Assembly: GCA_044345405.1 (NCBI GenBank)
Contig: JBIJBE010000006.1
Span: forward strand, 32,001 to 96,000
Source of the DNA: Bdellovibrionota bacterium
GTDB lineage: Bacteria; Bdellovibrionota_C; UBA2361; OMII01
DNA: 64,000 bases
Reading direction: 5' to 3'
Positions 55,915-59,058 of the stretch are shown in pieces; position 1 is the first letter of the stretch; every line of letters starts with the position of its first letter. The notes under the pieces are model-generated. The model ran no database searches. It was not told where the DNA came from and saw nothing but the letters and a program-made list of their open reading frames with translations. The translations under genes and the position numbers were made by a program.

Positions 55915-56229
55915 TTAGCGAAGCAAGCTCAAACGCTCCTGAATAGCCTCTGGATTTCCTTCGTACTGACGAAGGCTCTCTTGCAGGGAGATCGGATCGA
56001 GATCGAGGTGAAGCGCTACCCACGCGAAGCTAAATGGTCGCTTCGGCGTAATCTTTCCAAACAACCACTGACGAGCGCTTCGAACAACGTGACGCTCGCA
56101 ATGGGCTGTCCCAAAAGCGTCGCAAATGGCTCGTGCCAAAACCGCTGCCAGAAGATTTCTTTCAGGTTTTACCGGGGAGGATGCTTCGGTATCGTCTTCG
56201 GGCAAAAACTTGTTAGCAGAATTGCTCAT
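55915..56229 (-). CDS. Conserved small helical hypothetical protein
   Basis: PERNLLAAVLARAICD...ARQWLF...FSFAWVALHLDLDP resembles a recurring uncharacterised family (from memory, not searched). Confidence 0.65.
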   Translation of the reverse strand: MSNSANKFLPEDDTEASSPVKPERNLLAAVLARAICDAFGTAHCERHVVRSARQWLFGKITPKRPFSFAWVALHLDLDPISLQESLRQYEGNPEAIQERLSLLR

Positions 56230-56592: not shown

Positions 56593-56621
56593 TTGACTTT
56601 TATCACCCCTAATATTACCTT
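56593..56621 (+). promoter_or_regulatory. Candidate sigma70 promoter of the RRM-S18 gene
   Basis: TTGACT-N17-TACCTT. Confidence 0.5.
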
Positions 56622-56650
56622 CTCCCCCTCTAAGAGTTCTAGGAGTATGC

Positions 56651-57217
56651 ATGAATTCCCCTGTTACCAAAAAGAAGCTTTTCATCAGCAACCTTGATTT
56701 CGAAGTGACCAGCGAGCAACTCTCGCAGCTCTTCGAAGAGATCGGCGCAACGGTTAGCGTTGTGGTCGCTTCGGATCGTGAGACCAAGCGTTCAAAGGGT
56801 TTCGCGTTCGTTGAAATGGAGCGTGAAGAGGATGCTCGTACTGCAATCGAGACCCTCAACAACCGCGCTGTTAACGGCCGTCCAATGAAGGTGTGTGAAG
56901 ACCGCGGTAAGAACGCTGGTCCAGCATCATCTGAGGGCGGTTCAAGCGAGGGTGGCCGTAAGTTTGAGCCACTTCCTTCGATCCAGAGAATGCAACTCTT
57001 CAAGCGTCGTCGTAAGCTTGATCCCTTCACTGAGGATCCTCGCAAGTCGATCGACTACAAGGACGTCGCAATGCTCTCGAAGTTCGTCAGCGAGCGTGGT
57101 CGTATCCTCTCTCGTCGTTTGACCGGACTTACCGCGTACAATCAGCGGAAGGTTTCTAAGGCTATCAAGCGCGCTCAGAGCCTTGGTCTTATGGCCTTCA
57201 CGTCGATCCAAGAGTAG
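56651..57217 (+). CDS. rpsR: RRM domain fused to 30S ribosomal protein bS18
   Basis: N-terminal RNP2 LFISNL and RNP1 KGFAFVEM; C-terminal IDYKD...KFVSERGRILSRRLTG...QRKVSKAIKRAQSLGLM. Confidence 0.92.
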   Translation: MNSPVTKKKLFISNLDFEVTSEQLSQLFEEIGATVSVVVASDRETKRSKGFAFVEMEREEDARTAIETLNNRAVNGRPMKVCEDRGKNAGPASSEGGSSEGGRKFEPLPSIQRMQLFKRRRKLDPFTEDPRKSIDYKDVAMLSKFVSERGRILSRRLTGLTAYNQRKVSKAIKRAQSLGLMAFTSIQE

Positions 57218-57241
57218 TTGGACGACAGAACTCTTAGACAG

Positions 57242-57302
57242 AAAAAGCCGGCCACTGTGCCGGCTTTTTTATGGGCCGGCTTTTTTATGGGCCGGCTTTT
57301 TT
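57242..57302 (+). terminator. Intrinsic terminator with triplicated 3' arm
   Basis: AAAAAGCCGGC...GCCGGCTTTTTT followed by two more ATGGGCCGGCTTTTTT units. Confidence 0.8.
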
Positions 57303-57611
57303 GTTGCGCGTGTGCTGCTCCGTGGTGACCCGCGAAGCGTAATCGAAGCGGGACCACATACTAACCCTGTACCGAGGTGATACCTGAGGGTCCCGTCCCC
57401 CGAAGCTTCAGCGCAGGGGGAAACTTTAATCTATTTTCAAACTTTCTCACAAACGCCCCTGAATGCGCGCAAAACTACGCAGCGAATGAACACCCGGGGA
57501 AACAGCTTTCCCTACCCTTCCTTAACGCTCTGGCCTGTCTCACACCGTAACCTGCGAGTTTTGCGGCTTTAAAACCCCCCGGTACAACAAGTTATTTCTC
57601 AGCATCCGCGG

Positions 57612-57627: not shown

Positions 57628-57704
57628 GATGTCCCATCAAGAGATAACGCCGAACGTTGGTCCCTACACAGACCTCGGAGTCGGTTGGCATAGGAAGCCT
57701 CGTT

Positions 57705-58103
57705 ATGAAAACCACACACCACTCATCACAATCTGGAAGCGTCTTCGTCGAAGCCGCCGTTGTCACCCCGATGCTCATGATGCTCATCGTATCGATGATG
57801 CAGTTCGGATACATCTACGGCGTGTTAACCAATCTGCGAGGGGCCTCTGCCGTGGCCGCTCGTATGGCGGTTTTGGGGACGGCGAGCTCGCAGGTGGATG
57901 TCTGCCAAGCCGCGAAAAACGCCGTGACATCGATGGTTGATTCCTCGCAGCTTGCATGCGAAACGAGCCCATCGGTACTACCCGCTCCAGTGAATTCTCC
58001 GGTCACTATCACACTAAGCTACCCTGTGCCGCTCCTCGCCTCGAATTCGGGCGTGTTGAAGGGACCAACCTTCACGGTAAGCGCTCGCACAACGATGCAG
58101 TAA
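57705..58103 (+). CDS. tadE: TadE-like pseudopilin
   Basis: G-SVFVE-AAVVTP prepilin motif and AARMA. Confidence 0.85.
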   Translation: MKTTHHSSQSGSVFVEAAVVTPMLMMLIVSMMQFGYIYGVLTNLRGASAVAARMAVLGTASSQVDVCQAAKNAVTSMVDSSQLACETSPSVLPAPVNSPVTITLSYPVPLLASNSGVLKGPTFTVSARTTMQ

Positions 58104-58113
58104 GGAGGGTGAC

Positions 58114-59058
58114 ATGAAATCCGCTGCGAAGAGACCGTGTCAGGAGGATTCGGGGTTCGTGCTCTTTATGTTCATGGTGATCACGGCCGTACTCCTCACA
58201 TCGGTCGCGTTCACCGTCGACATGGGACGAGCGTACGATGAACAGCGGCAGCTCCAGATAGTCGCCGACTCCGCGGCGCTCGCCGCAGTGAGTGCCCTAG
58301 GATCCGGCACAAGCTACACGAGGATTCTGTCGATTGTCGCGGCGATCGCGGAAGCGAATGGAGCGACCATCGACGAGATAATGGAAAATGAACCTCTGTG
58401 TGGTACCTGGGAGGAAGGGGAGTTCATCCAGAGCAACGGTCGATCGTGTCCCTCATCGGCGAACGCTGTTGAGGTGAATATCAAGCGAACTGTTCCGACT
58501 CGTTTCGCTCAACTCATGAATCAACATTCCATGACGTTACGGGCGAGCGCTGTGGCGTACCTTCCCCCACCGGAGGGCGGAAATTGTATTCGGCCATTCG
58601 GTATTGAGGAATCCCACCTTGAGGCATTGAACGTGTCTGAGGGAGACACCTTTTCGGTGAGTGGCTCGCAGGGCATGGGGAATTGGGGAAAGATCGATCT
58701 CGGCGGCAACGCGTCGTCGGGCGAGGAGTATACTCAGCTCATGCTCACTAACCTGTGCGACGAGGCTATCGCCCCGGGTAACTTCGTCTCGAGCGGAACG
58801 GGTAACGCGCAGATCAATCAGGTATTCCAGGCCCTCCTCGAGGATACAACCCCTCCCCTCGCCGCGAGCAACATGGTCTTCGCCGTAACCTCCGATTTCG
58901 GGAGCGGAAATTCACAGGTGCAGATTCAACGGTTCGTTAAGGTTAATCTTCTCTCTCAAGAGGGTTCGGGCTCGAAGTGGCGGGCGAACTTTCAGGTTGT
59001 AGAATGGGACACCCAACCCGACCCTCCGGTCAGCCCATCGAGACGATTAATGAGATAG
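58114..59058 (+). CDS. tadG: TadG-like Tad pilus protein
   Basis: SGFV + TM + VDMGRAY...QLQIVADSAALAA. Confidence 0.8.
   Translation: MKSAAKRPCQEDSGFVLFMFMVITAVLLTSVAFTVDMGRAYDEQRQLQIVADSAALAAVSALGSGTSYTRILSIVAAIAEANGATIDEIMENEPLCGTWEEGEFIQSNGRSCPSSANAVEVNIKRTVPTRFAQLMNQHSMTLRASAVAYLPPPEGGNCIRPFGIEESHLEALNVSEGDTFSVSGSQGMGNWGKIDLGGNASSGEEYTQLMLTNLCDEAIAPGNFVSSGTGNAQINQVFQALLEDTTPPLAASNMVFAVTSDFGSGNSQVQIQRFVKVNLLSQEGSGSKWRANFQVVEWDTQPDPPVSPSRRLMR

What the first reader, a model, noticed from the sequence alone, without database searches (positions are those of the whole stretch)
56651..57217. RRM domain fused to a zinc-free ribosomal protein bS18
One uninterrupted ORF joins a complete RRM (RNP2 LFISNL, RNP1 KGFAFVEM) through a Gly/Ser linker to a full bS18 lacking the Zn-ligand cysteines (KLDPF in place of CxxC). 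It has its own promoter, RBS and terminator and lies outside the usual rpsF-ssb-rpsR-rplI context. bS18 sits on the 30S platform near the mRNA exit and anti-SD helix. Inference: a tethered single-stranded-RNA-binding domain there could recruit or unfold mRNA leaders, as bS1 does, giving a lineage-specific or specialised ribosome. I do not know of a characterised example.
Basis: partly seen in the sequence, partly recalled or inferred. Interest (0 to 1): 0.8.

Follow-up and report, generated by a model that had tools for sequence, protein, structure and literature searches.

The report
RRM domain fused to ribosomal protein bS18
This bacterium's only gene for small-subunit ribosomal protein bS18 carries an RNA-binding RRM domain at its front end, a design kept across its whole phylum, so these ribosomes probably hold an extra RNA-binding module where the messenger RNA leaves the small subunit.

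Summary
Window 56651..57217 (+) is one intact 188-aa ORF. It has RRM_1 (residues 10-79), a disordered Gly/Ser/Glu linker, and a complete bS18 (residues about 112-188).

It is the only bS18 gene in a 99.4%-complete genome. rpsF and rplI lie side by side elsewhere with no rpsR between them.

The fusion is present in 75 of 78 genomes (at least 90% complete) of the window's GTDB phylum. Source labels on relatives read Oligoflexia, Bdellovibrionota or Deltaproteobacteria bacterium. One genome lost the RRM, one gene is cut by a contig end, and one has no S18 hit.

dN/dS is 0.044 for the RRM and 0.047 for bS18. The RNP1 and RNP2 aromatics are invariant. The fused RRMs form one clade. One RNA-library contig spans the RRM-linker-S18 junction without indels.

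The fusion was not found in the Bdellovibrio phylum, where a bS6-bS18 fusion occurs instead.

Published structures place the bS18 N-terminal tail on the Shine-Dalgarno/anti-SD helix. Most likely the RRM is tethered at the mRNA exit and binds single-stranded leader RNA or the 16S 3' tail. That step is inferred, not shown.

"Zinc-free" is unremarkable, and the claimed promoter was not confirmed. My searches found no paper on this fusion.

The parts
56641..56645 (+). Shine-Dalgarno AGGAG, 5 nt upstream of the ATG
   Evidence: Read from the sequence. The genome's 16S rRNA ends in GGATCACCTCCTTT, a canonical anti-SD.
56651..57217 (+). Whole CDS of the RRM-bS18 fusion, 188 aa plus stop. It is the only rpsR of the genome.
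56672..56905 (+). RRM domain, residues 8-85 (RNP2 LFISNL, RNP1 KGFAFVEM)
   Evidence: Pfam RRM_1 at 10-79. The AF2 model has a beta-alpha-beta-beta-alpha-beta order with block pLDDT 90-94. Foldseek TM-scores normalised to the target are about 0.9 against solved RRMs, including chloroplast cS22 chain 5mmj_v. F11 and F53 are invariant and F51 is kept in at least 90% of 20 orthologues. dN/dS is 0.044.
56906..56983 (+). Gly/Ser/Glu-rich linker (residues 86-111). Its last residues, about 104-111 (FEPLPSIQ), are conserved within the order.
   Evidence: pLDDT is below 50 for residues 88-104. The segment between the RRM end and the DPF motif varies from 28 to 70 residues among 20 orthologues. The indels seen among 11 close orthologues lie in the linker and at the protein ends, all in frame; dN/dS is 0.107.
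56984..57214 (+). Complete bS18, residues 112-188, including the basic N-terminal tail FKRRRKLDPF
   Evidence: dN/dS is 0.047.
57241..57304 (+). Tandem intrinsic terminators. Hairpin 1 is 57241-57270 (GCCGGC stem flanked by an A-run and a U-run). Hairpin 2 is 57273-57298 followed by a T-run.
   Evidence: z = -4.85. One RNA-library contig ends at 57272; this is a weak hint only.

Best explanation
The ORF encodes the organism's one and only ribosomal protein bS18. Early in this phylum's history the gene left the rpsF-rpsR-rplI operon and gained a canonical single-stranded-RNA-binding RRM at its N-terminus.

Shown:
- The C-terminal 77 residues are a complete bS18.
- No other bS18 gene exists in this genome, nor in five further well-assembled genomes of the phylum.
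- The RRM keeps its RNA-binding aromatic residues and is as strongly constrained as the bS18 part.
- The two domains are joined by a flexible linker of variable length.

Established knowledge: in solved ribosomes the bS18 N-terminal tail lines the cleft that holds the Shine-Dalgarno/anti-SD helix, on the platform at the mRNA exit.

Inferred: every 30S subunit of this lineage carries an RRM on a leash at that site. The disordered stretch is about 17 residues, roughly 60 Å if fully extended. There the RRM most likely binds single-stranded RNA emerging 5' of the SD. It would hold or melt mRNA leaders during initiation, acting as a built-in version of the free RRM proteins that other bacteria use as cold-induced RNA chaperones. 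It would work beside bS1, which this genome also has, not in place of it.
For: Identity and intactness:
-.

Sole copy:
- 1 PF01084 hit in G000, which is 99.39% complete.
- 1 hit each in 5 of 5 further genomes of 3-30 contigs, always the fused frame.
- rpsF and rplI are adjacent without rpsR.

Conservation:
- 75 of 78 genomes at least 90% complete in the phylum carry the fusion.
- G059 and G100 were resolved, and G071.

Selection:
- dN/dS is 0.044 (RRM), 0.107 (linker) and 0.047 (S18) over 11 coding sequences.
- F11, F53 and G50 are invariant; F51 is at least 90% conserved in 20 sequences.

Single origin:
- The 20 fused RRMs sit on one side of a branch against 75 stand-alone RRMs (SH-aLRT 92).

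Structure:
- Two confident domains, linker pLDDT below 50, pTM 0.44.
- Canonical RRM fold.

Expression hint:
- A 488-nt RNA-library contig of run X16 covers 56639-57126 across RRM, linker and S18, with no indel.
- A 368-nt contig of X15 covers 56642-57009.

Position on the 30S:
- Passages of PMC4611024.
- Passages of PMC5655137.
- Abstracts of PMC9976891 and PMC13000453: bS21, bS18 and bS6 form the pocket for the 16S 3' tail.

SD system in use:
- Canonical anti-SD in the 16S.
- An SD core occurs upstream of 31% of crudely assigned starts, against 16.5% in a control window.

Independent links between bacterial RRM proteins and this ribosomal site:
- An RRM gene lies immediately upstream of rpsR in 3 of 73 stand-alone RRM loci, two labelled Pirellulales.
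- In cyanobacteria an Rbp1-type RRM gene is the commonest upstream neighbour of cS24, a protein found close to the anti-SD (passages of PMC13640635).
- Rbp3 co-purifies with ribosomal proteins (passages of PMC12232666).
Against: - No experiment shows that the protein is in the ribosome as a fusion, or what RNA the RRM binds.
- One genome of the phylum (G045, 92% complete) has an unfused 107-aa bS18 at the same locus, so the RRM can be dispensed with.
- bS1 is complete, with six S1 domains, so no gap in leader handling is evident.
- The RNA evidence is contigs from RNA libraries. These can contain DNA and cannot prove a single transcript or protein.
- NCBI's annotation calls some orthologues as 72-82-aa S18 only, which leaves internal initiation formally open.
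- The Pirellulales adjacency is confined to few genomes. None of the 11 other S18 places listed in a 61-genome sample of that class lies beside an RRM hit, and 37 matches of that call were not listed.
- The authors of PMC12232666 say there is no direct evidence that Rbp3 binds ribosomes.
- The dN/dS, the tree and the SD count come from my own scripts on small samples.
Confidence: 0.6

Rival explanations
1. The tethered RRM acts on ribosomal RNA, not on mRNA. It would bind the single-stranded 3' tail of 16S rRNA (the anti-SD) or a nearby helix. It would then modulate SD recognition, as the bS21/bS18/bS6 pocket does in Bacteroidia, or simply brace the platform, as the RRMs of chloroplast cS22 brace helices h6 and h10.
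For: - bS18 is part of the pocket that sequesters the 16S 3' tail in Bacteroidia (abstracts of PMC9976891 and PMC13000453).
- The cS22 RRMs bind 16S helices h6 and h10 (passages of bioRxiv 10.64898/2026.07.03.736309).
- cS22 is among the best solved-structure matches of this RRM.
Against: - The 16S gene matches the bacterial model over positions 1-1533 in 1515 nt, so there is no lineage-specific expansion to brace.
- The anti-SD is canonical and SD cores are enriched upstream of genes, which argues against SD blindness.
- The linker is disordered and varies from 28 to 70 residues, which fits a mobile domain better than a fixed one.
Confidence: 0.2
2. The RRM serves the protein before or outside translation. 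It could act as a cis RNA chaperone during 30S platform assembly. Alternatively it could be an autoregulatory module that binds the gene's own mRNA, replacing the S6:S18 feedback that was lost when rpsR left the rpsF operon.
For: - rpsR is detached from rpsF.
- No Rfam family matched upstream of rpsF. The only two hits in L015, at E 0.36 and 0.55, are unrelated families lying elsewhere in the locus.
- Ribosomal proteins commonly autoregulate; this is recalled knowledge, not tested here.
Against: - The 131-nt leader region folds no better than shuffles (z = 0.45; 130 of 200 shuffles fold as well).
- The window has no Rfam match other than one tRNA.
- In Bacteroides, loss of the free RRM proteins did not impair ribosome assembly (passages of PMC13370968).
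- A domain needed only for regulation would not be expected to show dN/dS equal to that of bS18 across a phylum; this last point is inference.
Confidence: 0.12
3. The fusion is only genetic and two proteins are made. A separate bS18 would arise from an internal start (Met114) or by cleavage in the linker, and the RRM would act as a free protein.
For: - NCBI annotation gives 72-aa or 82-aa S18 proteins for three orthologous genes (P0123, P0128, P0143).
- One genome lives with an unfused bS18.
Against: - The Met at that position is not conserved. L034 and P0053 have Thr. L035, L036 and L029 have Val. The other orders have a different motif, and its Met is replaced by Thr or Leu in L027, L028 and L030.
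- No AGGAG-like site precedes Met114.
- The indels seen among close orthologues are all in frame, and the linker itself is under purifying selection (dN/dS 0.107).
- No stop separates the two parts in any of 75 genomes.
Confidence: 0.05

Closest known systems
Canonical bacterial bS18 (rpsR; Pfam PF01084, TIGR00165)
   Same: The C-terminal 77 residues align over nearly the full length of solved bS18 chains and score above the equivalog cut-off. The gene is the single copy in the genome.
   Different: It carries an N-terminal RRM and linker of about 110 residues. The gene is not in the rpsF-(ssb)-rpsR-rplI operon.
Stand-alone bacterial RRM-1 proteins (cyanobacterial Rbp1-3, Bacteroides RbpA-C; NCBIfam NF058537)
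   Same: A single RRM of about 80 residues with the same RNP motifs. The genome itself has two such proteins with Gly/Arg-rich tails, 43% and 39% identical to the fused RRM. These proteins are linked to cold adaptation and, loosely, to ribosomes in the literature.
   Different: Here the Gly-rich tail is replaced by a linker that runs into bS18. The score against NF058537 is 89.3 bits, below its cut-off of 100. The fused RRMs form their own clade.
Chloroplast cS22 (PSRP2)
   Same: It is a ribosomal protein of a bacterial-type 30S that is built of RRM domains, and it is among the best solved-structure matches.
   Different: cS22 is a separate protein with two RRMs, bound at the 30S foot on helices h6 and h10. 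According to that preprint it arose in land plants. The protein here has one RRM, covalently joined to bS18 at the platform.
bS1
   Same: The proposed role is similar: a flexible single-stranded-RNA-binding module at the mRNA exit side of the 30S. This is inference.
   Different: bS1 has a different fold (S1/OB domains). The genome has its own full bS1 with six S1 domains.
bS6-bS18 fusion in the Bdellovibrio phylum (seen here)
   Same: It is another lineage-wide fusion of bS18 at its N-terminus, in the phylum that shares the NCBI name Bdellovibrionota.
   Different: The partner there is bS6, which is the known binding partner of bS18, not an RRM. No RRM was found in any of the 10 loci fetched.

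Membership tests
bS18 (PF01084 / TIGR00165) | Profile score above the curated cut-off | tested here: met
   PF01084: 84.6 bits against a cut-off of 21. TIGR00165: 78.6 bits against 38.75.
bS18 (PF01084 / TIGR00165) | Full-length likeness to bS18 of solved ribosomes, including the basic N-terminal tail | tested here: met
   ORF residues 112-185 align to residues 4-77 of an 81-aa chain, and residues 117-185 to 4-72 of a 75-aa chain.
bS18 (PF01084 / TIGR00165) | It is the genome's functional copy (no other rpsR) | tested here: met
   1 hit in G000. 1 hit each in 5 of 5 further genomes.
bS18 (PF01084 / TIGR00165) | Usual operon context rpsF-(ssb)-rpsR-rplI | tested here: not met
   rpsF and rplI are adjacent on C76 and rpsR is on C45. 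Context is typical of the family, not a defining feature.
bS18 (PF01084 / TIGR00165) | Incorporation into the 30S next to bS6, on the 16S central domain | not testable with these tools
   Needs ribosome proteomics or cryo-EM.
RRM_1 (PF00076) | Profile score above the cut-off | tested here: met
   80.4 bits against a cut-off of 20.7, over residues 10-79.
RRM_1 (PF00076) | RNP2 and RNP1 motifs with exposed aromatics | tested here: met
   LFISNL and KGFAFVEM are present. F11 and F53 are invariant and F51 is at least 90% conserved in 20 orthologues.
RRM_1 (PF00076) | Beta-alpha-beta-beta-alpha-beta fold | tested here: met
   The AF2 secondary-structure order fits, with pLDDT 90-94. Foldseek against solved RRMs gives rmsd 0.8-1.0 Å and target-normalised TM-score about 0.9.
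RRM_1 (PF00076) | Binds single-stranded RNA | not testable with these tools
   Needs a binding assay or CLIP.
NCBIfam NF058537 Rbp_regulator | Score above the curated cut-off of 100 bits | tested here: not met
   89.3 bits. The RRM is related to this family but is not a member.
cS22 / PSRP2 | Separate protein with two tandem RRMs | tested here: not met
   One RRM, fused to bS18.
bS1 | S1 (OB-fold) domains | tested here: not met
   No S1 domain in this protein. bS1 is encoded separately.

The most novel reading that the evidence does not exclude
The fusion may work as a 'Rosetta stone' for the poorly understood free RRM-1 proteins of bacteria. Their general place of action would be the 30S platform beside bS18, bS21 and the anti-SD, where they would handle mRNA leaders.

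Three independent associations point to that site:
- the covalent RRM-bS18 fusion across this phylum;
- RRM genes directly upstream of rpsR in some Pirellulales-labelled genomes;
- the cyanobacterial pairings of rbp genes with rpsU (title of Sato 1994, seen only in a reference list) and with cS24.

In this phylum the partnership would have become permanent, giving a constitutively specialised ribosome.
Probability: 0.25. Interest if true: 0.8.

Novelty: new variant of a known kind. Interest (0 to 1): 0.62.

Why it matters
Ribosomal proteins seldom gain whole foreign domains in bacteria, and an RNA-binding domain placed where mRNA meets the anti-SD would touch the core of translation initiation.

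This case is phylum-wide, single-copy and strongly constrained, so it is not an annotation oddity.

It offers a natural system for asking what a tethered single-stranded-RNA binder does at the mRNA exit. Because the RRM's location is fixed by its fusion partner, it also gives a testable hypothesis for where the enigmatic free bacterial RRM proteins act.

On the practical side, automatic annotation sometimes cuts these genes down to the S18 part, which hides the feature.

The interest is tempered because the mechanism is inferred. The architecture is already visible in domain databases: the Pfam pair is precomputed for the homologues. Lineage-specific additions to ribosomal proteins are a known kind of thing.

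Tried and rejected
Assembly artefact or frameshift: rejected. The frame is intact in 75 genomes. An independent DNA contig (X13, 56400-57187) and RNA-library contigs show no indels.

Second canonical rpsR: none found.

Internal start at Met114: the Met is not conserved and has no SD.

Promoter: 0 consensus sites. A TTGACT at 56594-56599 has no properly spaced -10 box by eye, so this stays open.

Leader RNA structure: not better than shuffles. No Rfam family matched in the window other than a tRNA, and none matched upstream of rpsF.

Range outside the phylum stays open.
- The search for related loci returned mainly stand-alone RRM loci and 7 Streptococcus S18 loci, and none of the fused genes.
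- The representative search was swamped by multi-RRM proteins. Only 4 of the best 150 rows are full-length fusions: P0147, P0167, P0171 and P0181.
- A search for long S18 proteins with a planctomycete-like S18 gave 57 proteins, 0 of them with RRM_1, but it also missed the known fusions.

bS21 next to stand-alone RRM genes: 0 of 73 loci, using one bS21 as the tblastn query. Sensitivity is low.

RNA 5' end: RNA-library contigs of three runs begin at 56639-56642 while the DNA contig runs on. This is a weak hint only and I built nothing on it.

Uncovered parts of the stretch in the RNA runs are no evidence.

The SD count uses the most upstream start of long ORFs and is crude.

Complex prediction was not used, because a bS6-bS18 pair would pass by likeness to solved ribosomes.

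Supplementary files of papers were not consulted. The supplementary tables of PMC12232666 may list which ribosomal proteins were most enriched with Rbp3.

Literature searches for the fusion found no paper that describes it. Subscription-only papers are not covered.

Full report
**What is there.** Window 56651..57217 (+) is a single 188-aa ORF.
- Pfam finds RRM_1 at residues 10-79 (E 8.8e-23) and Ribosomal_S18 at 132-181 (E 5.1e-24).
- NCBIfam's S18 equivalog model covers residues 117-184 at 78.6 bits against a cut-off of 38.75. The bacterial RRM model NF058537 scores 89.3 bits, below its cut-off of 100.
- Against solved structures the C-terminal part aligns almost end to end with bS18 chains: residues 112-185 to residues 4-77 of an 81-aa chain, and 117-185 to 4-72 of a 75-aa chain.
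- The layout is therefore RRM (about residues 8-85), linker (about 86-111), and a complete bS18 with its basic N-terminal tail (112-188).
- An AlphaFold2 model built on 20 orthologues has mean pLDDT 82. It shows two confident domains, pLDDT below 50 for residues 88-104, and pTM 0.44, which is beads on a string.
- Foldseek matches the N-terminal domain to solved RRMs at rmsd 0.8-1.0 Å, among them chloroplast ribosomal protein cS22.

**Signals around the gene.** An AGGAG lies 5 nt before the ATG. Two hairpins with U-runs follow the stop (z = -4.85). The consensus scan found no sigma-70 promoter. The leader does not fold better than shuffles.

**It is the only bS18.** The genome holding the window is 99.39% complete in 85 contigs.
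- It has exactly one Ribosomal_S18 match, which is this gene.
- It has three RRM_1 matches: this gene and two stand-alone Gly/Arg-tailed RRM proteins.
- rpsF lies on another contig, directly followed by rplI after 66 nt and preceded by pth. No rpsR or ssb lies between.
- bS1 (six S1 domains in one 591-aa frame) and bS21 are both present.
- The 16S rRNA ends in GGATCACCTCCTTT, a canonical anti-SD, and has no large insertion.
- SD cores are about twice as frequent upstream of crudely assigned starts as in a control window: 779 of 2518 against 416 of 2518.

**How far it is conserved.** A six-frame search of the window's GTDB phylum covered 78 genomes at least 90% complete, all in one class.
- 74 genomes have a match spanning both domains in one open frame. 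G100 appears as two pieces in one frame.
- G059 also proved fused, with a long linker, which makes 75 of 78.
- G045 has an unfused 107-aa bS18 at the same locus, next to the same conserved neighbour gene. It keeps a linker-like N-terminal remnant, which reads as a secondary deletion of the RRM.
- In G043 the gene is cut by a contig end.
- G021 (90% complete) has no S18 hit at all.
- G071's flagged TGA is the terminal stop; its ORF is intact.
- In 5 of 5 further well-assembled genomes the fused frame is the only S18 hit.
- Source labels on close homologues read Oligoflexia bacterium, Bdellovibrionota bacterium or Deltaproteobacteria bacterium.
- A word-based protein search found 500 homologues at E up to 0.001. 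All 120 listed carry both Pfam domains.

**Selection and origin.**
- Over 11 coding sequences (ten of the genus and one of another family), median pairwise dN/dS is 0.044 for the RRM, 0.107 for the linker and 0.047 for bS18. The indels lie in the linker and at the protein ends, and all are in frame.
- In a 20-sequence alignment across the phylum, F11, G50 and F53 are invariant and F51 is at least 90% conserved.
- The stretch between the RRM and the DPF motif varies from 28 to 70 residues.
- In a tree of 95 RRM domains the 20 fused ones form one side of a branch (SH-aLRT 92). That fits one fusion event. With 78 columns the tree is weak elsewhere.

**Expression hint.** Six lake-water metatranscriptome runs hold part of the stretch.
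- Laid on the window, a 488-nt contig of X16 covers 56639-57126 with one substitution and no indel. It crosses RRM, linker and most of S18.
- X15 has contigs covering 56642-57009 and 57031-57272.
- Contigs from RNA libraries cannot prove a transcript, so this is supportive only.

**Outside the phylum.** In the phylum of Bdellovibrio bacteriovorus, 151 of 151 sampled genomes have S18.
- 27 of the 150 listed places lie in frames of 200 aa or more.
- Of the 10 I fetched, 9 are bS6-bS18 fusions and one has a Gly/Arg/Asp-rich extension. None has an RRM.
- B. bacteriovorus itself has an unfused gene.
- Wider searches were uninformative, so the full range is open.
- Among 73 stand-alone RRM loci from many phyla, three have rpsR immediately downstream on the same strand: L051, L057 and L084, two of them labelled Pirellulales. 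Their RRMs are not the nearest relatives of the fused ones, so this is a separate association.
- That association is patchy. None of the 11 other S18 places listed in a 61-genome sample of that class lies beside an RRM hit, and 37 matches of that call were not listed.

**How it probably works.**
- An RNA polymerase-30S structure places S18 around the opening that leads to the 16S 3' end (PMC5655137).
- In Bacteroidia, bS21, bS18 and bS6 form the pocket that holds the 16S 3' tail (abstracts).
- An RRM attached to that tail by about 17 disordered residues would therefore hover at the mRNA exit. This step is inference.
- The intact RNP surface argues that it binds single-stranded RNA. The most economical target is the leader emerging 5' of the SD. 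The 16S 3' tail is the main alternative.
- Free bacterial RRM proteins support cold adaptation and are discussed as RNA chaperones (PMC13370968).
- They co-purify with ribosomal proteins, although those authors note that direct binding is unproven (PMC12232666).
- In cyanobacteria they are genomic neighbours of cS24, a protein near the anti-SD (PMC13640635).
- I put about 0.95 on 'real, sole, fused bS18' and about 0.45 on the leader-binding mechanism. The stated overall confidence is 0.6.

**Comparison and novelty.**
- The protein is a member of both bS18 and RRM_1 by every sequence and fold test I could run.
- It is not a member of cS22, bS1 or NF058537.
- It resembles cS22 in being an RRM-bearing protein of a bacterial-type 30S, but it differs in site, copy number of RRMs and covalent context.
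- Six literature searches found no description of the fusion.
- The domain pair is already visible in precomputed annotations. NCBI sometimes trims the gene to S18 alone.
- I rate it a new variant of a known kind: a lineage-specific domain added to a ribosomal protein.

Noticed in passing
L128-L130, L132-L137 (phylum of Bdellovibrio bacteriovorus): bS18 is fused to bS6 in one ORF of about 200-215 aa in 9 of 10 fetched loci. 27 of the 150 listed S18 places in a 151-genome sample lie in frames of 200 aa or more. This is a different bS18 fusion in the neighbouring phylum. My one search on it found no paper.
   Followed up: partly
window 55915..56229 (-): A 104-aa ORF with two conserved Cys and no Pfam or NCBIfam family lies within about 1 kb upstream of the fused rpsR in 24 of 28 loci across the phylum. 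Identity is mostly 67-100%, with one distant match at 36%. It is divergent from rpsR in the window's order and co-directional in other orders. It may be a functional partner.
   Followed up: partly
L051 2857..3904; L057 1413..2232; L084 2992..3882: In three planctomycete-type loci (two labelled Pirellulales) a Gly-rich RRM protein gene sits directly upstream of rpsR on the same strand. A thioesterase-like gene follows.
   Followed up: partly
L032 1902..2225 (G045): This is the one genome of the phylum with an unfused 107-aa bS18 at the syntenic locus. The 178-nt gap upstream is too short for an RRM, so the domain appears to have been deleted.
   Followed up: yes
P0123, P0128, P0143: NCBI annotation calls three orthologous fused genes as 72-82-aa S18 only, starting at an internal codon. 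Database counts of this architecture will therefore be too low.
   Followed up: no
L131 (G207): A bS18 with a non-RRM N-terminal extension of about 60 residues, rich in DRGG/RGG repeats.
   Followed up: no
window 57657..59058 (+): TadE-like and TadG-like (Tad, Tad_C) pilus-assembly genes lie just downstream of the terminator.
   Followed up: no
window 57265..57304: The unit ATGGGCCGGCTTTTTT occurs twice in tandem after the first terminator hairpin. This gives a second hairpin built from the palindromic GCCGGC.
   Followed up: partly
window 56639..56642: RNA-library contigs of three runs (three coded studies) all begin here, at the SD, while a DNA contig continues upstream. It could be a 5' end or an assembly effect.
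   Followed up: no
L124 751..1428; L125 698..1381: A response-regulator-like gene of about 225 aa lies convergent to rpsR in two other families of the phylum, but not in the window. I named it from its sequence by eye and did not scan it against any family library.
   Followed up: no
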